A stretch of 45,219 bases of DNA from a virus (lineage: Duplodnaviria > Heunggongvirae > Uroviricota > Caudoviricetes). The stretch's first letter is position 1. The number at the start of each line of letters is the position of its first letter. Below, piece after piece: positions 16,821 to 38,800 of the stretch. The position numbers and the translations under genes were made by a program. The stretch lies in IMG/VR virus record IMGVR_UViG_646206259_000004; one strand, 5' to 3'. The notes beneath the pieces were generated by a model. That model made no database searches and was not told the DNA's origin. It saw only the letters and a program-made list of their open reading frames with translations.

Positions 16821-17055
16821 CTCACAATTCAGTAAGTTGACAGTTGCCTGTCAGACTGGGCATTTGTTAAAAAAATTTCGCATGGTGAATCCCCCTGAGC
16901 GGAGGGGCGACTGGTGACGGTATAATCTCTGATTATCAAAACGAGAATGACGCGGGTTTAGTGGCACCGGGCTGAACTCACCGGGAGGCACCCGGCACCA
17001 TGTGCATGATGATACAGATACGCGGCTTTAGCCCCTCTCCGGAGGGGTTTTCTTG
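16821..17055 (+). repeat. Structured non-coding module, copy 2
   Basis: Same conserved blocks as copy 1 in the same order, ending in the CCCCTCTCCGGAGGGG hairpin plus T-run; 468 bp downstream of copy 1. Confidence 0.4.
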
Positions 17056-17282
17056 TGGGCAAAAAAAGCCCGCGCTGGGAGACGCGGGCGGCAAGGAATA
17101 AACAATAAAACGTGAAGTAATATTTCAGCTGGCGAATAATACCCCATAGTAATCACTCTGCGCAACTGCGCGGTCTTTTTCGAATTGCGGGCTGTCGTCT
17201 CTCTTCTGCCATTGTCCTGTAACTTCCGGACTTCAGCCCGCTCCTTATTTTACTCACAATATTATCCCGGCCGGGAGGATTC

Positions 17283-17510
17283 ATGGCATTTAAACACTAT
17301 GACGTGGTCAGGGCGGTATCGCCGTCAGACCTTGCGAAACGACTGACACAAAAACTGAAGGAGGGCTGGCAGCCGTTTGGTAGTCCGGTGGCCATAACCC
17401 CTTATACCCTGATGCAGGCGATTGCAGCAGAAGGTGATGTGGTGGTCAGTGGTGCAACTGAGCCGGATTGGTACTACGTCATCGTACTGGCCCGGCATTC
17501 CAGGCCATAA
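17283..17510 (+). CDS. Hypothetical phage protein upstream of the lysis cassette
   Basis: 75 aa ORF with GGAGG RBS 5 nt before the ATG. Confidence 0.5.
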   Translation: MAFKHYDVVRAVSPSDLAKRLTQKLKEGWQPFGSPVAITPYTLMQAIAAEGDVVVSGATEPDWYYVIVLARHSRP

Positions 17511-17778
17511 AAGACAGTCTGGCAGTGGGACTAAATGCACTGACGCTGATGGATATTACCAAAAATGTAACGTATGGCGTTGAGATAGAAAGTCTGGCGC
17601 TGGAGATAAATGCACCGGCATCATCATAAAAAGTGAGCCAGTCAAATGGAAGGTATCGTTAAACTCACCGGTAGTGTCAGTGGGTCGTCTGAGACGCTTG
17701 CATGAGTTATCAGAGCCATCAGTAGTTAACTGGTGGCTTTTTTATTGTTTTCAGCTTCCGGATAACGGGAGACGGGGT

Positions 17779-17994
17779 ATGGACCAGATGGAAAAAATCA
17801 CAACAGGTGTGTCATACACCACGTCAGCGGTGGGAACGGGCTACTGGTTCCTGCAGTTGCTGGACAGGGTTTCCCCGTCTCAGTGGGCGGCAATAGGCGT
17901 GCTGGGGAGTCTGCTGTTTGGGCTGCTGACATATCTGACTAACCTGTATTTCAAAATCAGAGAGGACCGTCGTAAGGCGGCACGGGGAGAGTAA
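17779..17994 (+). CDS. S: S21-type pinholin (class II holin, dual-start)
   Basis: [71 protein letters not shown] closely resembles phage 21 S; Met1/Met4 dual start; the track ORF over-extends upstream. Confidence 0.85.
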
Positions 17995-17998
17995 TTCA

Positions 17999-18343
17999 AT
18001 GACTCAAAACTATGAACTGATTGTGAAAGGGATCCGCAATTTTGAGAATAAAGTTACGGTAACTTTAGCATTACAGGACAAAGAACGCTTTGACGGTGAA
18101 ATTTTTGACCTGGACATCTCGCTGGACCGTGTTGAAGGTGCTGCGCTGGAGTTTTATGAGGCAGCGGCCAGAAGGAGCATCAGACAGGTCTTCCTGGATG
18201 TCGCTGCCGGGTTATGTGAAGGGGATGAGCAGTCGCCGGAAAAGCGCCCCGTAATTTTAGAGGCGCAGAATGTATGGATAACCTACAAAGGAAAGCTACC
18301 GGGAAGGATTACTGGTTCCCTGAAGACTCCGCCGAAATGGTAG
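17999..18343 (+). CDS. Hypothetical protein inserted between holin and endolysin
   Basis: 114 aa ORF starting 5 nt after the holin stop; no family recognised; weak RBS. Confidence 0.45.
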   Translation: MTQNYELIVKGIRNFENKVTVTLALQDKERFDGEIFDLDISLDRVEGAALEFYEAAARRSIRQVFLDVAAGLCEGDEQSPEKRPVILEAQNVWITYKGKLPGRITGSLKTPPKW

Positions 18344-18581
18344 TTTTGCCAGCATAATTTTCTTCCAGCAATGCCGCCAGCCACTTGAAAGAATTTTGTT
18401 GTTCCTGGGACCATTTGGGGTTGCGTGATTCAAAATGAATGGATGCCAGCGTTGGCAGCATTTGCTCCCTGGGAATTGATAAGGCCAGATGTGAAAATGC
18501 AACAGTGAGGGCATTTACATCATCCCGAAGCCTGGAAATGCAGTCGAGCAACTCCTGTAGAGAAATGGTGCTATTGTCCAT
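18309..18581 (-). CDS. Hypothetical protein (minus strand) inside the lysis cassette
   Basis: 90 aa ORF with a good AAGAGGA RBS on the minus strand; convergent with and overlapping the previous ORF by 35 nt. Confidence 0.5.
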   Translation of the reverse strand: MDNSTISLQELLDCISRLRDDVNALTVAFSHLALSIPREQMLPTLASIHFESRNPKWSQEQQNSFKWLAALLEENYAGKTTISAESSGNQ

Positions 18582-18686
18582 AAATAATCCTCTTGATTGT
18601 CTTTACCTTTTCCCCGCCTGATTCAACAGGCCGGGACAGATAAACATATCCAGGGTTCAGAAACCGATAAATCCTGATAAATATCC

Positions 18687-19220
18687 ATGAACGCAAAAAT
18701 CAAATACGGCCTGTCAGCTGCAGTTCTGGCGCTGATTGGAGCAGGCGCATCAGCTCCTCAGATACTTGACCAGTTTCTGGATGAAAAAGAGGGTAACCAC
18801 ACTACGGCATACCGCGATGGTTCCGGCAACTGGACCATCTGTCGGGGGGCCACGATGGTGGATGGAAAACCCGTTTTTCCCGGTATGAAACTGTCGAAGG
18901 AAAAATGCGACCAGGTCAACGCCATTGAGCGTGATAAGGCGCTGGCATGGGTGGAGAAAAACATCAAAGTGCCATTGAGCGAACCCCAGAAAGCGGGGAT
19001 CGCGTCATTCTGTCCGTACAACATTGGTCCCGGTAAGTGTTTCCCGTCGACGTTTTATAAACGAATTAATGCAGGTGATCGCAGGGGAGCGTGTGAGGCG
19101 ATTCGCTGGTGGATTAAGGACGGTGGCAGAGACTGCCGTATTCGTTCAAACAACTGCTACGGTCAGGTATCCCGTCGTGACCAGGAGAGCGCGCTGGCGT
19201 GCTGGGGTATCGACAGATAA
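18687..19220 (+). CDS. R: SAR endolysin (R21-like lysozyme, GH24)
   Basis: 177 aa; N-terminal signal-anchor-release segment (LSAAVLALIGAGASA) and catalytic E...D...T triad (EGNHTTAYRDGSGNWT). Confidence 0.9.
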   Translation: MNAKIKYGLSAAVLALIGAGASAPQILDQFLDEKEGNHTTAYRDGSGNWTICRGATMVDGKPVFPGMKLSKEKCDQVNAIERDKALAWVEKNIKVPLSEPQKAGIASFCPYNIGPGKCFPSTFYKRINAGDRRGACEAIRWWIKDGGRDCRIRSNNCYGQVSRRDQESALACWGIDR

Positions 19221-19418
19221 GCAGAATATTTTGCTGAAAAATAAGGCATGGCCACGCGGGCGGATAACATGAAATCCTGCGAAGTGGCGAAACGTAAGTG
19301 AATAAAAGTAAAAACCCCGTTTGTTGGCACCAAGCGGGGTTTTGTGTTTCCTGACTCCGGAAAAGTCAAAGGAGAAAGTGTGTTTGATTTTAGCAAACTG
19401 ATTCGGGAGATTCGAGTG

Positions 19419-19517
19419 ATGGCTGAAAAATTATCCACCTGGAAGTTCATTCTTATCTGGCTGGTGTTTGTGATTATGGCCTCTGGTTATTTCATCGGTC
19501 AGATACGCTGGTGGTGA
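19419..19517 (+). CDS. Candidate small membrane protein (32 aa; 46 aa from GTG 19380)
   Basis: [32 protein letters not shown], a single hydrophobic helix; ends 1 nt before the Rz start; AGGAGA RBS upstream of the GTG alternative start. Confidence 0.3.
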
Positions 19518-19518
19518 A

Positions 19519-20145
19519 ATGAACCGCGTACTGTGCGTGGTCATCATTGCCCTGCTGGTGGCCTGTGGTGCGCTTAGTCTGGGGCTGAATCATTACCGTG
19601 ATAACGCCATTACCTACAAAGCCCAGCGCGACAAAAATGTCAGAGAACTGAAGCTGGCGAACGCGGCAATTACTGACATGNNNNNNNNNNNNNNNNNNNN
19701 NNNNNNNNNNNNNNNNNNNNNNNNNNNNNNNNNNNNNNNNNNNNNNNNNNNNNNNNNNNNNNNNNNNNNNNNNNNNNNNNNNNNNNNNNNNNNNNNNNNN
19801 NNNNNNNNNNNNNNNNNNNNNNNNNNNNNNNNNNNNNNNNNNNNNNNNNNNNNNNNNNNNNNNNNNNNNNNNNNNNNNNNNNNNNNNNNNNNNNNNNNNN
19901 NNNNNNNNNNNNNNNNNNNNNNNNNNNNNNNNNNNNNNNNNNNNNNNNNNNNNNNNNNNNNNNNNNNNNNNNNNNNNNNNNNNNNNNNNNNNNNNNNNNN
20001 NNNNNNNNNNNNNNNNNNNNNNNNNNNNNNNNNNNNNNNNNNNNNNNNNNNNNNNNNNNNNNNNNNNNNNNNNNCGCGACTGATAATAATGCAAAAACAA
20101 CTTGAAGGGGCACAGCTATACATTCGAGAGCAATGCCTCAGATAA
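19519..20145 (+). CDS. Rz: Rz i-spanin (interior N-masked; embedded Rz1 not visible)
   Basis: N-terminus ...[31 protein letters not shown] and C-terminus [20 protein letters not shown] match lambda Rz; 19681-20074 is N-masked. Confidence 0.8.
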
Positions 20146-21576: not shown

Positions 21577-23117
21577 NNNNNNNNNNNNNNNNNNNNNNNN
21601 NNNNNNNNNNNNNNNNNNNNNNNNNNNNNNNNNNNNNNNNNNNNNNNNNNNNNNNNNNNNNNNNNNNNNNNNNNNNNNNNNNNNNNNNNNNNNNNNNNNN
21701 NNNNNNNNNNNNNNNNNNNNNNNNNNNNNNNNNNNNNNNNNNNNNNNNNNNNNNNNNNNNNNNNNNNNNNNNNNNNNNNNNNNNNNNNNNNNNNNNNNNN
21801 NNNNNNNNNNNNNNNNNNNNNNNNNNNNNNNNNNNNNNNNNNNNNNNNNNNNNNNNNNNNNNNNNNNNNNNNNNNNNNNNNNNNNNNNNNNNNNNNNNNN
21901 NNNNNNNNNNNNNNNNNNNNNNNNNNNNNNNNNNNNNNNNNNNNNNNNNNNNNNNNNNNNNNNNNNNNNNNNNNNNNNNNNNNNNNNNNNNNNNNNNNNN
22001 NNNNNNNNNNNNNNNNNNNNNNNNNNNNNNNNNNNNNNNNNNNNNNNNNNNNNNNNNNNNNNNNNNNNNNNNNNNNNNNNNNNNNNNNNNNNNNNNNNNN
22101 NNNNNNNNNNNNNNNNNNNNNNNNNNNNNNNNNNNNNNNNNNNNNNNNNNNNNNNNNNNNNNNNNNNNNNNNNNNNNNNNNNNNNNNNNNNNNNNNNNNN
22201 NNNNNNNNNNNNNNNNNNNNNNNNNNNNNNNNNNNNNNNNNNNNNNNNNNNNNNNNNNNNNNNNNNNNNNNNNNNNNNNNNNNNNNNNNNNNNNNNNNNN
22301 NNNNNNNNNNNNNNNNNNNNNNNNNNNNNNNNNNNNNNNNNNNNNNNNNNNNNNNNNNNNNNNNNNNNNNNNNNNNNNNNNNNNNNNNNNNNNNNNNNNN
22401 NNNNNNNNNNNNNNNNNNNNNNNNNNNNNNNNNNNNNNNNNNNNNNNNNNNNNNNNNNNNNNNNNNNNNNNNNNNNNNNNNNNNNNNNNNNNNNNNNNNN
22501 NNNNNNNNNNNNNNNNNNNNNNNNNNNNNNNNNNNNNNNNNNNNNNNNNNNNNNNNNNNNNNNNNNNNNNNNNNNNNNNNNNNNNNNNNNNNNNNNNNNN
22601 NNNNNNNNNNNNNNNNNNNNNNNNNNNNNNNNNNNNNNNNNNNNNNNNNNNNNNNNNNNNNNNNNNNNNNNNNNNNNNNNNNNNNNNNNNNNNNNNNNNN
22701 NNNNNNNNNNNNNNNNNNNNNNNNNNNNNNNNNNNNNNNNNNNNNNNNNNNNNNNNNNNNNNNNNNNNNNNNNNNNNNNNNNNNNNNNNNNNNNNNNNNN
22801 NNNNNNNNNNNNNNNNNNNNNNNNNNNNNNNNNNNNNNNNNNNNNNNNNNNNNNNNNNNNNNNNNNNNNNNNNNNNNNNNNNNNNNNNNNNNNNNNNNNN
22901 NNNNNNNNNNNNNNNNNNNNNNNNNNNNNNNNNNNNNNNNNNNNNNNNNNNNNNNNNNNNNNNNNNNNNNNNNNNNNNNNNNNNNNNNNNNNNNNNNNNN
23001 NNNNNNNNNNNNNNNNNNNNNNNNNNNNNNNNNNNNNNNNNNNNNNNNNNNNNNNNNNNNNNNNNNNNNNNNNNNNNNNNNNNNNNNNNNNNNNNNNNNN
23101 NNNNNNNNNNNNNNNNA

Positions 23118-24766: not shown

Positions 24767-25934
24767 NNNNNNNNNNNNNNNNNNNNNNNNNNNNNNNNNN
24801 NNNNNNNNNNNNNNNNNNNNNNNNNNNNNNNNNNNNNNNNNNNNNNNNNNNNNNNNNNNNNNNNNNNNNNNNNNNNNNNNNNNNNNNNNNNNNNNNNNNN
24901 NNNNNNNNNNNNNNNNNNNNNNNNNNNNNNNNNNNNNNNNNNNNNNNNNNNNNNNNNNNNNNNNNNNNNNNNNNNNNNNNNNNNNNNNNNNNNNNNNNNN
25001 NNNNNNNNNNNNNNNNNNNNNNNNNNNNNNNNNNNNNNNNNNNNNNNNNNNNNNNNNNNNNNNNNNNNNNNNNNNNNNNNNNNNNNNNNNNNNNNNNNNN
25101 NNNNNNNNNNNNNNNNNNNNNNNNNNNNNNNNNNNNNNNNNNNNNNNNNNNNNNNNNNNNNNNNNNNNNNNNNNNNNNNNNNNNNNNNNNNNNNNNNNNN
25201 NNNNNNNNNNNNNNNNNNNNNNNNNNNNNNNNNNNNNNNNNNNNNNNNNNNNNNNNNNNNNNNNNNNNNNNNNNNNNNNNNNNNNNNNNNNNNNNNNNNN
25301 NNNNNNNNNNNNNNNNNNNNNNNNNNNNNNNNNNNNNNNNNNNNNNNNNNNNNNNNNNNNNNNNNNNNNNNNNNNNNNNNNNNNNNNNNNNNNNNNNNNN
25401 NNNNNNNNNNNNNNNNNNNNNNNNNNNNNNNNNNNNNNNNNNNNNNNNNNNNNNNNNNNNNNNNNNNNNNNNNNNNNNNNNNNNNNNNNNNNNNNNNNNN
25501 NNNNNNNNNNNNNNNNNNNNNNNNNNNNNNNNNNNNNNNNNNNNNNNNNNNNNNNNNNNNNNNNNNNNNNNNNNNNNNNNNNNNNNNNNNNNNNNNNNNN
25601 NNNNNNNNNNNNNNNNNNNNNNNNNNNNNNNNNNNNNNNNNNNNNNNNNNNNNNNNNNNNNNNNNNNNNNNNNNNNNNNNNNNNNNNNNNNNNNNNNNNN
25701 NNNNNNNNNNNNNNNNNNNNNNNNNNNNNNNNNNNNNNNNNNNNNNNNNNNNNNNNNNNNNNNNNNNNNNNNNNNNNNNNNNNNNNNNNNNNNNNNNNNN
25801 NNNNNNNNNNNNNNNNNNNNNNNNNNNNNNNNNNNNNNNNNNNNNNNNNNNNNNNNNNNNNNNNNNNNNNNNNNNNNNNNNNNNNNNNNNNNNNNNNNNN
25901 NNNNNNNNNNNNNNNNNNNNNNNNNNNNNNNNNT

Positions 25935-30639: not shown

Positions 30640-33324
30640 TCTTGTTATTGACCTGAGTCTGGATGCTGTCCGTTTCGATGAGCAGATGAGCCGGGTAAGG
30701 CGTCATTTTTCAGGTCTGGATACCGACGCCAGAAAAACCGCCAGTGCTGTTGAACAGGGCCTGAGCCGCCAGGCGCTGGCTGCACAAAAAGCCGGGATTT
30801 CCGTCGGGCAGTATAAAGCGGCCATGCGAACCCTGCCCGCACAGTTTACGGATATCGCCACGCAGCTTGCCGGTGGTCAGAATCCCTGGTTGATCCTGCT
30901 GCAACAGGGCGGTCAGGTGAAGGACTCCTTCGGCGGGATGATCCCCATGTTCAGGGGGCTTGCCGGTGCGATCACCCTGCCGATGGTCGGGGTCACCTCG
31001 CTGGCGGTGGCGACAGGTGCGCTGGCGTACGCCTGGTACCAGGGCGACGCCACGCTTTCAGAATTTAATAAAACGCTGGTCCTTTCCGGCAATCAGGCCG
31101 GACTGACTGCCGATCGTATGCTGACGCTCTCAAGAGCCGGGCAGGCAGCAGGGCTGACGTTTAACCAGGCGAGAGAGTCACTGGCAGCCTTGGTGAATGC
31201 CGGTGTGCGTGGTGGTGAACAGTTTGATGCCATCAACCAGAGTGTCGCGCGTTTTGCGTCTGCATCCGGTGTGGAGGTGGATNNNNNNNNNNNNNNNNNN
31301 NNNNNNNNNNNNNNNNNNNNNNNNNNNNNNNNNNNNNNNNNNNNNNNNNNNNNNNNNNNNNNNNNNNNNNNNNNNNNNNNNNNNNNNNNNNNNNNNNNNN
31401 NNNNNNNNNNNNNNNNNNNNNNNNNNNNNNNNNNNNNNNNNNNNNNNNNNNNNNNNNNNNNNNNNNNNNNNNNNNNNNNNNNNNNNNNNNNNNNNNNNNN
31501 NNNNNNNNNNNNNNNNNNNNNNNNNNNNNNNNNNNNNNNNNNNNNNNNNNNNNNNNNNNNNNNNNNNNNNNNNNNNNNNNNNNNNNNNNNNNNNNNNNNN
31601 NNNNNNNNNNNNNNNNNNNNNNNNNNNNNNNNNNNNNNNNNNNNNNNNNNNNNNNNNNNNNNNNNNNNNNNNNNNNNNNNNNNNNNNNNNNNNNNNNNNN
31701 NNNNNNNNNNNNNNNNNNNNNNNNNNNNNNNNNNNNNNNNNNNNNNNNNNNNNNNNNNNNNNNNNNNNNNNNNNNNNNNNNNNNNNNNNNNNNNNNNNNN
31801 NNNNNNNNNNNNNNNNNNNNNNNNNNNNNNNNNNNNNNNNNNNNNNNNNNNNNNNNNNNNNNNNNNNNNNNNNNNNNNNNNNNNNNNNNNNNGTTCCGTA
31901 ACGTGACGGCAGAGCAGATTGCGTATGTTGCACAGCTGCAGCGTTCCGGAGACGAGGCCGGGGCATTGCAGGCGGCGAACGATATCGCCACGAAAGGCTT
32001 TGATGAGCAGACCCGTCGCCTGAAAGAAAACATGGGAACACTGGAGACCTGGGCGGATAAAACAGGGAAGGCATTCAAATCGATGTGGGATGCCATTCTG
32101 GATATCGGTCGTCCGGAATCCTCAGCGGATATGCTCGCCAGTGCGCAGAAGGCATTTGATGAGGCGGATAAAAAATGGCAGTGGTACCAGAGCCGGAGCC
32201 AGCGCCGGGGAAAGACCTCCTCTTTTCGTGCGAACCTTCAGGGGGCATGGGATGACCGGGAAAATGCCCGTCTGGGTCTGGCAGCGGCCACGCTGCAGTC
32301 GGATATGGAAAAAGCCGGTGAACTGGCGGCAAGGGACAGGGCTGAGCGTGAGTCGTCACAGCTGAAGTATACCGGAGAGGCGCAGAAGGCGTATGAGCGC
32401 CTGCAGACGCCGCTGGATAAATATACCGCCCGTCAGAAAGAGCTGAATAAGGCCCTGAAAGACGGAAAAATCCTGCAGGCGGATTACAACACGCTGATGG
32501 CGTCGGCAAAAAAGGATTATGAATCGACGCTGAAAAAGCCGTCAGGTGTGAAGGTGTCTGCCGGTGAGCGCCAGGAAGACCGGGCGCATGCAGCCCTGCT
32601 GGCGCTTGAAACCGAGCTCAGGACGCTGGAAAAACACAGCGGTGTGAATGAGAAAATCAGCCAGCAGCGCCGGGATTTATGGGAAGCGGAAAGTCAGTAT
32701 GTGGTCCTGAAAGAGGCCGCCACGAAACGGCAGTTATCTGAGCAGGAAAAATCCCTGCTGGCTCATGAGAAAGAGACGCTGGAGTACAAACGCCAGCTGG
32801 CTGAGCTGGGAGACAAGATTGAACACCAGAAGCGGCTGAATGAGCTGGCACAGCAGGCGGCGCGGTTTGAACAGCAGCAAAGCGCGAAGCAGGCGGCAAT
32901 CAGCGCAAAAGCCCGCGGCCTCACCGACCGTCAGGCGCAGCGGGAGTCGGAAGAGCAGCGCCTTCGTGAGGTGTACGGTGATAATCCGGCTGCGCTGGCG
33001 AAGGCCACATCGGCACTGAAGAACACCTGGTCTGCGGAGGAGCAGCTTCGTGGAAGCTGGATGGCCGGGATGAAGTCCGGCTGGGGAGAGTGGGCGGAAA
33101 GTGCGACGGACAGTTTTTCGCAGGTTAAAAGTGTGGCCACGCAGACCTTTGACGGTATTGCACAGAATATGGCGGCGATGCTGACCGGCAGCGAACAGAA
33201 CTGGCGGGGATTCACCCGTTCCGTGCTGTCCATGATGACAGAAATTCTGCTTAAGCAGGCAATGGTGGGGATTGTCGGGAGTATCGGCAGCGCCATTGGC
33301 GGGGCTGTTGGTGGCGGCGCATCC
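30620..33324 (+). CDS. H: Tape measure protein H (two internal/3' stretches N-masked; continues beyond 33324)
   Basis: N-terminus MSQPVGDLVIDLSLDAVRFDEQMSRVRRHFSG... and later segments (AEQIAYVAQLQRSGDEAGALQAAN..., ...LLKQAMVGIVGSIGSAIGGAVGGGAS) match lambda gpH. The frame differs on the two sides of the 31283-31892 mask, so mask length is not codon-faithful. Confidence 0.9.
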
Positions 33325-34932
33325 NNNNNNNNNNNNNNNNNNNNNNNNNNNNNNNNNNNNNNNNNNNNNNNNNNNNNNNNNNNNNNNNNNNNNNNNNNNN
33401 NNNNNNNNNNNNNNNNNNNNNNNNNNNNNNNNNNNNNNNNNNNNNNNNNNNNNNNNNNNNNNNNNNNNNNNNNNNNNNNNNNNNNNNNNNNNNNNNNNNN
33501 NNNNNNNNNNNNNNNNNNNNNNNNNNNNNNNNNNNNNNNNNNNNNNNNNNNNNNNNNNNNNNNNNNNNNNNNNNNNNNNNNNNNNNNNNNNNNNNNNNNN
33601 NNNNNNNNNNNNNNNNNNNNNNNNNNNNNNNNNNNNNNNNNNNNNNNNNNNNNNNNNNNNNNNNNNNNNNNNNNNNNNNNNNNNNNNNNNNNNNNNNNNN
33701 NNNNNNNNNNNNNNNNNNNNNNNNNNNNNNNNNNNNNNNNNNNNNNNNNNNNNNNNNNNNNNNNNNNNNNNNNNNNNNNNNNNNNNNNNNNNNNNNNNNN
33801 NNNNNNNNNNNNNNNNNNNNNNNNNNNNNNNNNNNNNNNNNNNNNNNNNNNNNNNNNNNNNNNNNNNNNNNNNNNNNNNNNNNNNNNNNNNNNNNNNNNN
33901 NNNNNNNNNNNNNNNNNNNNNNNNNNNNNNNNNNNNNNNNNNNNNNNNNNNNNNNNNNNNNNNNNNNNNNNNNNNNNNNNNNNNNNNNNNNNNNNNNNNN
34001 NNNNNNNNNNNNNNNNNNNNNNNNNNNNNNNNNNNNNNNNNNNNNNNNNNNNNNNNNNNNNNNNNNNNNNNNNNNNNNNNNNNNNNNNNNNNNNNNNNNN
34101 NNNNNNNNNNNNNNNNNNNNNNNNNNNNNNNNNNNNNNNNNNNNNNNNNNNNNNNNNNNNNNNNNNNNNNNNNNNNNNNNNNNNNNNNNNNNNNNNNNNN
34201 NNNNNNNNNNNNNNNNNNNNNNNNNNNNNNNNNNNNNNNNNNNNNNNNNNNNNNNNNNNNNNNNNNNNNNNNNNNNNNNNNNNNNNNNNNNNNNNNNNNN
34301 NNNNNNNNNNNNNNNNNNNNNNNNNNNNNNNNNNNNNNNNNNNNNNNNNNNNNNNNNNNNNNNNNNNNNNNNNNNNNNNNNNNNNNNNNNNNNNNNNNNN
34401 NNNNNNNNNNNNNNNNNNNNNNNNNNNNNNNNNNNNNNNNNNNNNNNNNNNNNNNNNNNNNNNNNNNNNNNNNNNNNNNNNNNNNNNNNNNNNNNNNNNN
34501 NNNNNNNNNNNNNNNNNNNNNNNNNNNNNNNNNNNNNNNNNNNNNNNNNNNNNNNNNNNNNNNNNNNNNNNNNNNNNNNNNNNNNNNNNNNNNNNNNNNN
34601 NNNNNNNNNNNNNNNNNNNNNNNNNNNNNNNNNNNNNNNNNNNNNNNNNNNNNNNNNNNNNNNNNNNNNNNNNNNNNNNNNNNNNNNNNNNNNNNNNNNN
34701 NNNNNNNNNNNNNNNNNNNNNNNNNNNNNNNNNNNNNNNNNNNNNNNNNNNNNNNNNNNNNNNNNNNNNNNNNNNNNNNNNNNNNNNNNNNNNNNNNNNN
34801 NNNNNNNNNNNNNNNNNNNNNNNNNNNNNNNNNNNNNNNNNNNNNNNNNNNNNNNNNNNNNNNNNNNNNNNNNNNNNNNNNNNNNNNNNNNNNNNNNNNN
34901 NNNNNNNNNNNNNNNNNNNNNNNNNNNNNNNT

Positions 34933-35881: not shown

Positions 35882-38800
35882 ATGGGTAAAGGAAGCAGTA
35901 AGGGGCATACCCCGCGCGAAGCGAGGGACAACCTGAAGTCCACGCAGCTGCTGAGTGTGATCGATGCCATCAGCGAAGGGCCGGTTGAAGGTCCGGTGGA
36001 CGGATTAAAAAGCGTGCTGCTGAACAGTACGCCGGTGCTGGACAGTGAGGGGAATACCAATATATCCGGTGTCACGGTGGTGTTCCGGGCAGGTGAGCAG
36101 GAGCAGACACCGCCGGAGGGATTTGAATCCTCCGGCTCCGAGACGGTGCTGGGTACGGAAGTGAAATATGACACGCCGATCACCCGGACCATCACGTCGG
36201 CAAACATCGACCGTCTGCGCTTTACCTTCGGTGTGCAGGCACTGGTGGAAACCACCTCAAAGGGGGACAGGAATCCGTCGGAAGTCCGCCTGCTGGTTCA
36301 GATCCAGCGTAACGGTGGCTGGGTGACGGAAAAAGACATCACCATTAAGGGCAAAACCACCTCGCAGTATCTGGCCTCGGTGGTGGTGGATAACCTGCCG
36401 CCGCGCCCGTTTAATATCCGGATGCGCAGAATGACGCCGGACAGCACCACAGACCAGCNNNNNNNNNNNNNNNNNNNNNNNNNNNNNNNNNNNNNNNNNN
36501 NNNNNNNNNNNNNNNNNNNNNNNNNNNNNNNNNNNNNNNNNNNNNNNNNNNNNNNNNNNNNNNNNNNNNNNNNNNNNNNNNNNNNNNNNNNNNNNNNNNN
36601 NNNNNNNNNNNNNNNNNNNNNNNNNNNNNNNNNNNNNNNNNNNNNNNNNNNNNNNNNNNNNNNNNNNNNNNNNNNNNNNNNNNNNNNNNNNNNNNNNNNN
36701 NNNNNNNNNNNNNNNNNNNNNNNNNNNNNNNNNNNNNNNNNNNNNNNNNNNNNNNNNNNNNNNNNNNNNNNNNNNNNNNNNNNNNNNNNNNNNNNNNNNN
36801 NNNNNNNNNNNNNNNNNNNNNNNNNNNNNNNNNNNNNNNNNNNNNNNNNNNNNNNNNNNNNNNNNNNNNNNNNNNNNNNNNNNNNNNNNNNNNNNNNNNN
36901 NNNNNNNNNNNNNNNNNNNNNNNNNNNNNNNNNNNNNNNNNNNNNNNNNNNNNNNNNNNNNNNNNNNNNNNNNNNNNNNNNNNNNNNNNNNNNNNNNNNN
37001 NNNNNNNNNNNNNNNNNNNNNNNNNNNNNNNNNNNNNNNNNNNNNNNNNNNNNNNNNNNNNNNNNNNNNNNNNNNNNNNNNNNNNNNNNNNNNNNNNNNN
37101 NNNNNNNNNNNNNNNNNNNNNNNNNNNNNNNNNNNNNNNNNNNNNNNNNNNNNNNNNNNNNNNNNNNNNNNNNNNNNNNNNNNNNNNNNNNNNNNNNNNN
37201 NNNNNNNNNNNNNNNNNNNNNNNNNNNNNNNNNNNNNNNNNNNNNNNNNNNNNNNNNNNNNNNNNNNNNNNNNNNNNNNNNNNNNNNNNNNNNNNNNNNN
37301 NNNNNNNNNNNNNNNNNNNNNNNNNNNNNNNNNNNNNNNNNNNNNNNNNNNNNNNNNNNNNNNNNNNNNNNNNNNNNNNNNNNNNNNNNNNNNNNNNNNN
37401 NNNNNNNNNNNNNNNNNNNNNNNNNNNNNNNNNNNNNNNNNNNNNNNNNNNNNNNNNNNNNNNNNNNNNNNNNNNNNNNNNNNNNNNNNNNNNNNNNNNN
37501 NNNNNNNNNNNNNNNNNNNNNNNNNNNNNNNNNNNNNNNNNNNNNNNNNNNNNNNNNNNNNNNNNNNNNNNNNNNNNNNNNNNNNNNNNNNNNNNNNNNN
37601 NNNNNNNNNNNNNNNNNNNNNNNNNNNNNNNNNNNNNNNNNNNNNNNNNNNNNNNNNNNNNNNNNNNNNNNNNNNNNNNNNNNNNNNNNNNNNNNNNNNN
37701 NNNNNNNNNNNNNNNNNNNNNNNNNNNNNNNNNNNNNNNNNNNNNNNNNNNNNNNNNNNNNNNNNNNNNNNNNNNNNNNNNNNNNNNNNNNNNNNNNNNN
37801 NNNNNNNNNNNNNNNNNNNNNNNNNNNNNNNNNNNNNNNNNNNNNNNNNNNNNNNNNNNNNNNNNNNNNNNNNNNNNNNNNNNNNNNNNNNNNNNNNNNN
37901 NNNNNNNNNNNNNNNNNNNNNNNNNNNNNNNNNNNNNNNNNNNNNNNNNNNNNNNNNNNNNNNNNNNNNNNNNNNNNNNNNNNNNNNNNNNNNNNNGTCG
38001 GTATCGTTCCGGATTGCCGCACCGGCAGCACCGTCGAGGATTGAGCTGACGCCGGGCTATTTTCAGATAACCGCCACGCCGCATCTTGCTGTTTATGACC
38101 CGACGGTACAGTTTGAGTTCTGGTTCTCGGAAAAGCGGATTACCGATATCAGGCAGGTTGAAACCACAGCCCGCTATCTTGGTACGGCGCTGTACTGGAT
38201 AGCCGCCAGTATCAATATCAAACCGGGCCATGATTATTATTTTTACGTTCGCAGTGTGAACACCGTTGGCAAATCGGCATTCGTGGAGGCTGTCGGTCGG
38301 GCGAGCGATGATGCGGAAGGTTACCTGGATTTTTTCAAAGGAGAAATCGGGAAAACACATCTGGCCCAGGAGTTGTGGACGCAGATTGATAACGGTCAGC
38401 TTGCGCCGGACCTGGCTGAAATCAGGACGTCCATTACGAATGTCAGCAATGAAATCACGCAGACCGTCAATAAAAAACTGGAAGACCAGAGTGCGGCAAT
38501 CCAGCAGATACAGAAAGTTCAGGTTGATACAAATAATAACCTGAACAGCATGTGGGCCGTGAAACTGCAGCAGATGAAGGACGGACGCCTTTATATTGCG
38601 GGTATCGGAGCCGGTATTGAGAATACGCCAGCAGGTATGCAGAGTCAGGTGCTTCTGGCTGCTGACCGGATTGCGATGATTAATCCTGCGAATGGCAACA
38701 CAAAGCCGATGTTTGTTGGTCAGGGCGATCAGATATTCATGAACGACGTGTTCCTGAAACGCCTGACGGCTCCGACCATTACCAGCGGCGGTAATCCTCC

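What the first reader, a model, noticed from the sequence alone, without database searches (positions are those of the whole stretch)
17999..18581. Convergent overlapping gene pair inserted between the holin and endolysin
S21-type holin and SAR endolysin genes are normally adjacent. Here a 114-aa plus-strand ORF and a 90-aa minus-strand ORF (with its own good RBS, overlapping 35 nt tail to tail) sit between them. A minus-strand gene inside a late lysis operon implies an independently transcribed cargo or antisense-regulated pair, possibly a lysis-timing regulator or a toxin/antitoxin-like module.
Basis: seen in the sequence. Interest (0 to 1): 0.6.

Follow-up and report, generated by a model that had tools for sequence, protein, structure and literature searches.

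The report
Resident ydfR plus optional reverse moron
The two ORFs between the holin and endolysin genes are real but ordinary: one is ydfR, a standard gene of this prophage lysis cassette, and the other is an optional, reverse-oriented accessory gene of unknown function found in about a fifth of E. coli genomes, so they are not a functional pair.

Summary
ORF-A (17999-18343, +, 114 aa) and ORF-B (18309-18581, -, 90 aa) lie between an S21-type holin and a lysozyme and overlap tail to tail by 35 nt. The window is 100% identical to an E. coli UTI89 prophage in which all four genes are already annotated. ORF-A is YdfR (Pfam DUF1327). It is the usual occupant of this position: ydfR-like DNA occurs in 4349 of 5426 complete E. 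coli genomes, including K-12 Qin (essD-ydfR-rrrQ). ORF-B belongs to PHROG 2411 and is a real gene (dN/dS 0.14-0.5, third-position excess). It encodes a soluble, acidic protein predicted to form three helices, with no informative homologue. It sits on a ~290-bp cassette (18335-~18626) that begins right after ydfR codon 112. In related phages that slot is empty or holds unrelated reverse-strand genes. ORF-B also occurs without ydfR, on IncF plasmids, beside iha, and inside tail or terminase operons of other phages. The overlap is a by-product of the junction. Nothing supports a toxin-antitoxin module, and no minus-strand promoter scores above chance. My best reading is a resident late gene plus an independent moron. 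It is of low interest and the function remains unknown.

The parts
17712..17740 (+). Intrinsic-terminator-like hairpin just upstream of the holin gene. The late transcript presumably has to read through it by Q antitermination.
   Evidence: 12-pair stem followed by a T-run. Its role is inferred.
17779..17994 (+). S21-type class II holin (pinholin family), 71 aa, with the dual-start motif MDQM
   Evidence: PF04971 E 9e-33 and phrog_9876/phrog_20 'holin'. RefSeq calls it 'class II holin family protein'.
17999..18343 (+). ydfR (DUF1327), 114 aa. It starts 4 nt after the holin stop codon and is a resident late gene of this lysis cassette. Codons 1-112 are backbone; the last two codons and the stop lie in the cassette.
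   Evidence: PF07041 E 6.9e-44 and phrog_406. It is 84% identical to K-12 YdfR over aa 1-74. The core up to '...SLKTPP' is conserved in all slot variants. The AF2 model shows three beta-strands and a helix, then a low-confidence C-terminal part (pLDDT 68).
18335..18626 (.). Optional ~290-bp cassette, an indel relative to Stx2_EH2201 and vB_EcoS-640R1. It carries ORF-B, its ribosome-binding site and about 45 nt of upstream sequence. The right boundary is fuzzy (18620-18640).
   Evidence: DNA alignment A4. The cassette is present in 1221 of 5426 complete E. coli genomes. Its GC content is 44.8%, against 48.7% for ydfR and 53.2% for R.
18309..18581 (-). ORF-B, 90 aa, PHROG 2411. A soluble acidic protein (pI 4.95) predicted to form three helices with a disordered tail (aa 80-90). 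Its last ~8 codons are read antisense to the conserved ydfR tail.
18588..18594 (-). Shine-Dalgarno sequence AAGAGGA of ORF-B, 6 nt upstream of the ATG
   Evidence: Read from the sequence. It is partly conserved in alignment A9.
18602..18636 (.). Inverted repeat at the right end of the cassette (CCCGGCCTG-TTGAAT-CAGGCGGGG on the minus strand). It forms a stable hairpin in either transcript and has no U-run. Function unknown.
   Evidence: strand folding gives -23.7 kcal/mol, z = -3.77, and 0 of 200 shuffles fold as well.
18687..19220 (+). Phage lysozyme (R, annotated rrrQ in UTI89), 177 aa, with a Gly/Ala-rich N-terminal segment typical of SAR endolysins
   Evidence: PF00959 E 4e-24 and phrog_7. 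The SAR character was judged from the sequence only. The ~60 nt upstream of R are conserved in all slot variants.

Best explanation
The interval holds two evolutionarily independent genes, not a module.

(1) ydfR (DUF1327) is a normal resident of the S21-type lysis cassette of E. coli lambdoid prophages. It starts 4 nt after the holin stop and is presumably transcribed with S and R on the Q-dependent late transcript (inferred). Its N-terminal 74 residues are 84% identical to K-12 YdfR. In that protein residues 1-72 suffice for a two-hybrid interaction with RNase E, the full-length protein co-purifies with the catalytic N-terminal half of RNase E, and RNA comes down with it. The most likely activity is therefore binding of RNase E and/or RNA late in infection (by homology, not shown here).

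(2) ORF-B lies on a ~290-bp reverse-oriented cassette in a recombination hot-spot directly after ydfR codon 112. The conserved ydfR tail and the conserved leader of R act as homology arms, so phages exchange what sits between them: nothing, ORF-B, or unrelated reverse-strand genes. The 35-nt overlap arises because the ORF-B reading frame runs out of the cassette into the antisense of the ydfR tail until it meets a stop codon. That tail is predicted to be disordered, and it differs wherever ORF-B sits in another context.

ORF-B is a translated, selectively maintained, soluble, acidic small protein predicted to form three helices. It most likely acts as a moron: an accessory gene expressed independently of the late operon that works by binding some host or phage macromolecule. 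It is probably not a component of lysis. Its actual function and its promoter are unknown.
For: The window is 100% identical to UTI89, with all four genes annotated. ydfR is DUF1327. It lies between the holin and lysozyme genes in K-12 Qin, BL21 Rac, ST131 and Stx phages, and ydfR-like DNA is in 4349 of 5426 genomes.

The slot has several states. It is empty in L005, L006 and L028. It holds ORF-B in L002 and L007-L011. It holds an unrelated 86-aa reverse gene with a 211-aa YdfR in PhiR5_1, and an unrelated 104-aa reverse gene with a 268-aa YdfR in Stx2 phage 86. hhalign finds no relation among the reverse-strand occupants.

The cassette is in 1221 of 5426 genomes. ORF-B is coding: dN/dS 0.14-0.5, a third-position excess, and only its frame open in all copies.

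ORF-B also occurs without ydfR: downstream of an autotransporter adhesin on conjugative IncF plasmids (73 of the 75 matching plasmid records are 60-80% identical), next to iha together with a 23-nt remnant of R, and, as distant members at 24-34% identity, reverse-oriented between tail genes M and L or beside the terminase of other phages.

AF2 predicts three helices and a disordered tail at aa 80-90. The protein has pI 4.95 and no transmembrane segment. The K-12 YdfR-RNase E data are in PMC13232886, and the 84% identity over aa 1-74 is.
Against: No sigma-70-like promoter for ORF-B scores above chance in the 320 nt upstream. The best site scores 8/12 with a 19-nt spacer, and there are 5 sites against 7.2 +/- 3.5 in shuffles. 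No canonical terminator follows ORF-B, only a 7-bp hairpin with four U residues inside ydfR. Independent transcription is therefore inferred from orientation and distribution, not shown.

Distant family members repeatedly converge on a small forward-strand gene. That leaves some room for a functional meaning of the convergent layout.
Confidence: 0.72

Rival explanations
1. The convergent arrangement is itself functional. Transcription of ORF-B, or its 3' UTR running antisense through ydfR and possibly S, interferes with leaky late transcription in the lysogen or tunes S/ydfR/R expression. This would make it a lysis-timing or safety device, which is the first reader's 'antisense-regulated pair'.
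For: There is a 35-nt tail-to-tail overlap, and no strong terminator follows ORF-B, so its RNA could extend into ydfR. Members of the same protein family sit reverse-oriented inside late operons in at least three unrelated places: the lysis cassette, the tail M-L junction and next to the terminase. They often overlap a small convergent gene by 7-17 nt.
Against: The protein sequence itself is under purifying selection, so the gene is not merely an antisense RNA. Many phages with near-identical S, ydfR and R lack the cassette and are viable isolates, for example vB_EcoS-640R1 and the Stx phages. The family also occurs outside any operon it could oppose, on plasmids, beside iha and in a dinI-bssS intergenic position. 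No promoter is detectable. The overlap length and the overlapped partner are not conserved.
Confidence: 0.1
2. ydfR and ORF-B form a toxin-antitoxin-like addiction or abortive-infection pair.
For: Both are small and adjacent, they overlap, and they sit in a prophage. Convergent 3'-overlapping layouts are known for some type I systems (own knowledge).
Against: Neither protein hits any toxin, antitoxin or defence model in Pfam, NCBIfam or PADLOC. Neither has a hydrophobic peptide character (maximum 19-residue Kyte-Doolittle mean 0.69 and 0.83). Each gene is common without the other. In the K-12 study YdfR accumulated visibly on overproduction, and growth arrest was reported only for another protein, YegJ.
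Confidence: 0.03
3. ORF-B is a specific lysogenic-conversion or anti-phage (superinfection or anti-defence) factor. This is a sub-case of the moron reading that adds a definite biological role.
For: Its position and orientation resemble lambda bor and lom (own knowledge). It is a small acidic helical protein. It is kept intact in cryptic prophages such as BL21 Rac and in islands and plasmids next to adhesin genes. It is in 22.5% of E. coli genomes but in only 3 of 370 phage records that carry this lysis cassette, although that collection is heavily biased towards Stx phages.
Against: There is no homology or fold match to any known defence, anti-defence or virulence protein. The copies in islands and plasmids are nearly clonal (at least 99% identical within each context), so they may simply be hitch-hiking. 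Frameshifted and truncated alleles exist.
Confidence: 0.3
4. ORF-B is a spurious open frame or a decaying gene remnant.
For: No Pfam family, no promoter, and some frameshifted alleles of 94 aa or 50-56 aa.
Against: dN/dS is 0.14-0.5 even at dS of about 1. Third-position variation is in excess (p = 1.4e-4). Only this frame is open in all copies. There is a strong Shine-Dalgarno sequence. Homologues at 24-34% identity keep the same length and the same motif.
Confidence: 0.03

Closest known systems
E. coli K-12 Qin prophage lysis cassette: holin (annotated essD in W3110; essQ in EcoGene nomenclature) - ydfR - rrrQ - rzpQ
   Same: The order is the same: an S21-type holin, then ydfR (84% identical over aa 1-74), then the lysozyme. 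K-12 YdfR binds the RNase E N-terminal half and pulls down RNA (PMC13232886).
   Different: K-12 YdfR is 103 aa, has a different C-terminal part, and overlaps the start of rrrQ. K-12 has no reverse-strand cassette.
Phage 21 lysis cassette S21-R21-Rz/Rz1 (pinholin plus SAR endolysin)
   Same: The holin family (PF04971), the dual-start motif and a lysozyme with an N-terminal Gly/Ala-rich segment (sequence; the phage 21 organisation is from my own knowledge).
   Different: In phage 21 the S and R genes are adjacent. Here, and in most E. coli prophages with this cassette, ydfR is interposed, with or without a variable cassette.
Lambda morons bor and lom: reverse-oriented or autonomously expressed accessory genes inside the late region
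   Same: A single small gene, opposite in orientation to the late operon, polymorphic for presence or absence between related phages, with lower GC than its flanks. The moron concept is from my own knowledge.
   Different: bor and lom have recognised promoters and encode envelope proteins. ORF-B has no detectable promoter or terminator and encodes a cytoplasmic helical protein of unknown function.
Stx2 phage 86 orf5/orf6 and phage PhiR5_1 (211-aa DUF1327 protein plus a reverse-strand 86-aa gene)
   Same: The same slot after ydfR codon 112 is filled by a reverse-strand small gene that converges on ydfR.
   Different: The reverse-strand genes are unrelated to ORF-B (hhalign probability below 1%), and YdfR carries long C-terminal extensions.
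Phage-encoded RNase E modulators (phiKZ Dip, T7 gp0.7, T4 Srd)
   Same: The only resemblance is conceptual: a phage protein that contacts RNase E. That is by inference from K-12 YdfR. The examples are from my own knowledge.

Membership tests
YdfR / DUF1327 (Pfam PF07041) | Match to the family HMM above the gathering score | tested here: met
   148.4 bits against a cut-off of 25, E 6.9e-44, covering aa 1-112. Also phrog_406 over the full length.
YdfR / DUF1327 (Pfam PF07041) | Position between an S21-type holin and the lysozyme in a lambdoid lysis cassette | tested here: met
YdfR / DUF1327 (Pfam PF07041) | Binding to the RNase E N-terminal half and to RNA, as reported for K-12 YdfR | not testable with these tools
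   This rests on homology only: 84% identity over aa 1-74, where aa 1-72 sufficed for the interaction in PMC13232886.
PHROG 2411 (uncharacterised phage protein family) | Full-length match to the family profile | tested here: met
   E 5.5e-55, residues 1-90 against profile positions 1-90 of 90. Distant members P0064, P0067, P0070, P0071, P0073 and P0075 also match, with E from 1e-9 to 1e-19.
Moron (autonomous accessory gene in a phage late region) | Presence/absence polymorphism between otherwise collinear phage genomes | tested here: met
   A ~290-bp indel with conserved flanks, present in 1221 genomes against 4349 that carry ydfR.
Moron (autonomous accessory gene in a phage late region) | Own promoter and terminator | tested here: inconclusive
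   No sigma-70-like site above chance. Only a weak hairpin with UUUU lies downstream. Scans of homologues in other contexts were also unconvincing.
Moron (autonomous accessory gene in a phage late region) | Base composition different from the flanking genes | tested here: met
   GC 44.8% in the cassette, against 48.7% (ydfR), 54.2% (S) and 53.2% (R). The difference is modest.
Moron (autonomous accessory gene in a phage late region) | Expression from the repressed prophage | not testable with these tools
   This needs strand-specific RNA-seq or a reporter fusion.
Type II toxin-antitoxin module | Two co-inherited genes with recognisable toxin and antitoxin domains | tested here: not met
   No such domains in Pfam, NCBIfam or PADLOC. 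Each gene occurs widely without the other.
Type I toxin-antitoxin (convergent, 3'-overlapping) | A small hydrophobic membrane toxin peptide | tested here: not met
   The maximum 19-residue Kyte-Doolittle mean is 0.69 for YdfR and 0.83 for ORF-B, and both proteins are acidic and soluble. No Rfam antisense RNA family matched.
Pinholin / SAR-endolysin lysis system (phage 21 type) | S21-family holin and a lysozyme with an N-terminal signal-anchor-release segment | tested here: inconclusive
   Both HMMs are met (PF04971 and PF00959). The SAR segment (GLSAAVLALIGAGASA) was judged by eye only, and membrane release cannot be tested here.

The most novel reading that the evidence does not exclude
PHROG 2411 genes may be a dedicated 'counter-oriented' module that lambdoid phages place inside late operons (lysis cassette, tail M-L junction, next to the terminase). 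Either the convergent transcription or the small acidic protein would then hold back leaky late-gene expression in the lysogen, including holin and endolysin, acting as a safety catch on the prophage. Here that could work together with an RNase E-binding YdfR. The evidence does not exclude this, because the reverse orientation inside late operons recurs at 24-34% protein identity, and the transcription of ORF-B and the function of its protein are both unknown.
Probability: 0.08. Interest if true: 0.55.

Novelty: new member of a known kind. Interest (0 to 1): 0.2.

Why it matters
It matters little as a discovery. The sequence is identical to annotated UTI89 genes, and both families are already catalogued (Pfam DUF1327, PHROG 2411).

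The analysis does correct a plausible-looking misreading. ydfR is part of the standard S21-type cassette. The 35-nt overlap is an accident of the junction. The slot behind ydfR codon 112 is a cassette-exchange hot-spot.

Two modest leads remain.
1. A gene embedded in the lysis cassette of most E. coli prophages probably binds RNase E or RNA, which would link late mRNA stability to lysis.
2. An uncharacterised small protein family, present in about 22% of E. coli genomes including BL21 and ST131, sits repeatedly in reverse orientation inside phage late operons.

Both leads are cheap to test genetically.

Tried and rejected
- Sequence searches. The PDB by sequence gave nothing for either family. 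PADLOC gave nothing. NCBIfam gave only noise, including anti-silencing Mip at E 0.08. Rfam gave nothing relevant at 17000-19600.
- Are the reverse-strand genes in the same slot of PhiR5_1 and Stx2 phage 86 distant relatives of ORF-B? No. The 'DUF1823' label in PhiR5_1 falls below the Pfam threshold.
- Is there a conserved partner gene? The small genes that converge on the distant ORF-B homologues (71, 60 and 85 aa) are unrelated to one another and to DUF1327. A resemblance between the C-terminal peptides of YdfR (ITGSLKTPPKW) and the Atlantibacter 71-aa protein (IFGDLKKPPSY) has hhalign E 0.019 and no DNA similarity, so I treat it as chance.
- Promoter and terminator scans of the window and of four homologous contexts gave nothing above shuffles.
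- The search for related loci with the family alignment failed because no stretch was conserved enough.
- Literature. Nothing was found on ORF-B. For ydfR there is only the RNase E interaction paper and its citation of an envelope screen.

Full report
**1. The observation**

The ORF listing reports a 114-aa ORF at 17999-18343 (+) and a 90-aa ORF at 18309-18581 (-). They overlap tail to tail by 35 nt (18309-18343). Upstream lies a 71-aa ORF at 17779-17994 that matches the phage 21 holin family (PF04971, E 9e-33). Downstream lies a 177-aa lysozyme at 18687-19220 (PF00959, E 4e-24). On the minus strand ORF-B is preceded by AAGAGGA, 6 nt before its ATG.

**2. Identity of the locus**

The 1.7-kb stretch is 100% identical to the chromosome of E. 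coli UTI89 and many other ExPEC strains. RefSeq annotates it there as class II holin, YdfR family protein (WP_000193259.1), hypothetical protein on the opposite strand (WP_001351274.1), and lysozyme rrrQ. The setting is a lambdoid prophage: Q antiterminator, DNA methyltransferase and three tRNA genes upstream, and Rz, terminase and portal genes downstream.

**3. ORF-A is ydfR, a resident of this cassette rather than an insert**

- It matches Pfam DUF1327 at 148 bits against a cut-off of 25, and PHROG 406 over its full length.
- The order holin-ydfR-lysozyme is found in K-12 Qin, the BL21 Rac remnant, ST131, Stx2 phage 86, an Stx2a phage and several induced coliphages.
- ydfR-like DNA occurs in 4349 of 5426 complete E. 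coli genomes, at up to 10 places per genome.
- The premise that S and R are normally adjacent is true of phage 21 itself (own knowledge) but not of this cassette lineage.
- ydfR begins 4 nt after the holin stop codon, so it is presumably part of the late transcript (inferred).

The only functional data I found are for K-12 YdfR. Its first 72 residues were recovered in a two-hybrid screen. The protein interacts with RNase E constructs that contain the catalytic N-terminal half and co-purifies with Rne(1-598). It also brings down DNase-resistant nucleic acid. Overproduction changed few transcripts, and growth arrest was reported only for a different protein, YegJ (PMC13232886). The window protein is 84% identical to K-12 YdfR over residues 1-74.

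**4. ORF-B is a real gene on an optional cassette**

Evidence that it codes for protein:
- It matches PHROG 2411 end to end (E 5.5e-55). It has no Pfam, NCBIfam or PADLOC family.
- Homologues are few. A word-indexed search found 61 clusters. An exhaustive profile search of 1.84 billion proteins found only 20 representatives at the 50% identity level. Most are from Escherichia and Shigella.
- Six distant members of 81-97 aa at 24-34% identity share the motif L..EVN.L..AFSYLAFS...TI.AL.FES.N.
- Across eight diverged nucleotide copies only the ORF-B frame is open. Variable sites fall 21/18/47 on codon positions 1/2/3 in codons 1-78 (p = 1.4e-4). Pairwise dN/dS is 0.14-0.5, even at dS of about 1.

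The protein is acidic (pI 4.95) and has no hydrophobic segment. AF2 predicts three helices (8-35, 38-52, 59-78) and a disordered tail (80-90), with mean pLDDT 79. Neither PDB nor BFVD holds a significant structural match.

**5. Anatomy of the junction**

I aligned the window with lysis cassettes that lack ORF-B (Stx2_EH2201, vB_EcoS-640R1) and with others that have it (Chlobot, vB_EcoS-783R2). This defines an indel of about 290 bp, from 18335 to about 18626.
- The left flank ends exactly at ydfR codon 112 (...SLKTPP).
- The right flank is the conserved ~60-nt leader of R.
- The last two ydfR codons and its stop therefore lie in the cassette.
- The last ~8 codons of ORF-B (SAESSGNQ) are read from the antisense of the conserved ydfR tail.
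- That part of ORF-B is predicted to be disordered, and it is different wherever the gene sits elsewhere.

The overlap is thus a consequence of where the cassette joins the backbone. It is not a conserved design.

The same slot also holds other contents. In PhiR5_1 there is a 211-aa YdfR plus an 86-aa reverse-strand gene. In Stx2 phage 86 there is a 268-aa YdfR plus a 104-aa reverse-strand gene. These reverse-strand genes are unrelated to ORF-B. The slot is a cassette-exchange hot-spot with at least four states.

**6. Independence of the two genes**

- The cassette is in 1221 of 5426 genomes, against 4349 with ydfR.
- Homologues of ORF-B also occur without ydfR in several settings:
  - About 300 nt downstream of an AIDA/TibA-like autotransporter with its heptosyltransferase. 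This is seen on conjugative IncF plasmids (73 of the 75 matching plasmid records are 60-80% identical) and in a few chromosomes.
  - Divergently next to iha in about 57-60 genomes. There the homology runs on into a 23-nt remnant of the 5' end of R, which shows that this copy derives from a decayed lysis cassette.
- The distant members lie in yet other places:
  - Reverse-oriented between tail genes M and L of lambda-like prophages.
  - Reverse-oriented beside the terminase genes.
  - In one chromosome, between dinI and bssS.
- The small forward-strand genes they converge on are unrelated to each other and to DUF1327.

This pattern contradicts an obligate pair or a toxin-antitoxin module.

**7. 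Transcription**

This is the weak point of every reading.
- The consensus scan finds no minus-strand promoter.
- A more lenient scan of 18582-18900 gives a best score of 8/12 with a 19-nt spacer. It finds no more sites than shuffled sequence does (5 against 7.2 +/- 3.5).
- By eye, TTTATC-17 nt-TATGTT (18671-18643) is conserved in the phage and iha copies. It lies in the conserved leader of R, so that conservation is uninformative.
- Downstream of ORF-B there is only a 7-bp hairpin followed by UUUU, inside ydfR.
- The right end of the cassette folds into a stable hairpin (z = -3.77) of unknown role.
- No Rfam family matches.

**8. Verdict**

The best-supported account has two parts: a resident late gene (ydfR), probably an RNase E- and/or RNA-binding protein by homology, and an independent reverse-oriented moron (ORF-B) of unknown function. 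The tail-to-tail overlap is incidental.

The antisense or lysis-timing idea keeps a small probability, because the reverse-in-late-operon layout recurs in distant family members. The toxin-antitoxin idea and the spurious-ORF idea are effectively excluded.

The feature is already annotated and very common. What remains open is the function of two uncharacterised small proteins, which keeps the interest low.

Noticed in passing
window 19681-20074, 21577-23116, 24767-25933, 31283-31892, 33325-34931, 36459-37996: Six runs of N (394-1607 bases) are masked in the window. The first falls inside the Rz-type lysis gene downstream of the lysozyme, so that gene cannot be read here.
   Followed up: no
window 19311-19343: A 13-pair hairpin lies between the lysozyme and the Rz gene, flanked by an A-run on one side and a T-run on the other, so it looks like a bidirectional terminator. 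It would stop minus-strand transcription coming from the DUF1398/ynfO genes before it reached ORF-B. The late transcript must read through it.
   Followed up: partly
window 17712-17740: A terminator-like hairpin with a T-run lies about 40 nt upstream of the holin start, far downstream of the Q gene. It is presumably another terminator overridden by Q antitermination.
   Followed up: no
window 18602-18636: An inverted repeat at the right edge of the ORF-B cassette folds much better than shuffled sequence (-23.7 kcal/mol, z = -3.77). The inner stem GCCUG/CAGGC is kept in the 783R2/ST131 allele. It has no U-run on either strand and its function is unknown.
   Followed up: partly
L013 1146-1743 (E. 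coli L26; the same arrangement in about 57-60 genomes): An intact ORF-B homologue lies divergently upstream of the adhesin/siderophore-receptor gene iha, flanked by transposase remnants. Homology to the window continues through the leader of R and the first 23 nt of R. Part of the region upstream of iha is therefore a decayed phage lysis cassette.
   Followed up: partly
L015 5989-6267, L016 6001-6255, L014 1160-1429: An ORF-B homologue (about 65% identical) lies about 300 nt downstream of a large AIDA/TibA-like autotransporter gene and its O-heptosyltransferase, with an HTH-domain gene nearby. The arrangement is found on conjugative IncF plasmids from cattle, sheep and human isolates and in a few chromosomes.
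   Followed up: partly
L020 5001-5476; L027 456-869; L023 821-1325: Distant PHROG 2411 members sit reverse-oriented between the lambda-like tail genes M and L, or next to small minus-strand genes. Each overlaps a small convergent gene by 7-17 nt. The Atlantibacter 71-aa partner has a conserved N-terminus and a variable C-terminus, as ydfR does, and one variant ends in ...IFGDLKKPPSY, which resembles ...ITGSLKTPPKW of YdfR. hhalign gives E 0.019 and there is no DNA similarity, so this is probably chance.
   Followed up: partly
proteins P0036, P0046, P0050 (94 aa) and P0038, P0043, P0049, P0056 (50-56 aa): Some genomes carry frameshifted or truncated ORF-B alleles. The 94-aa forms switch after ...NPKWS into the frame of the window's 72-aa ORF at 18296-18514. 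These are either pseudogenes or sequencing or annotation errors, and they are a small minority of the clusters.
   Followed up: no
L012 1548 onward; hits H31 and H32: IS elements are inserted at or next to this lysis cassette in some strains. In strain WGS1363 ISEc52 starts right where the lysozyme gene should begin. In APEC E12053 an IS3-family element splits the 1.7-kb region.
   Followed up: no
L025 72-5730: One distant ORF-B family member (P0075) is chromosomal. It lies between dinI and bssS, a few kb from rne (RNase E), in an unidentified enterobacterial assembly. It is not in a phage context.
   Followed up: no
(collection statistics): ORF-B is in 22.5% of complete E. coli genomes but in only 3 of the 370 phage records that share this lysis cassette. 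It may be enriched in resident or cryptic prophages, or this may reflect the heavy Stx-phage bias of the phage collection.
   Followed up: no
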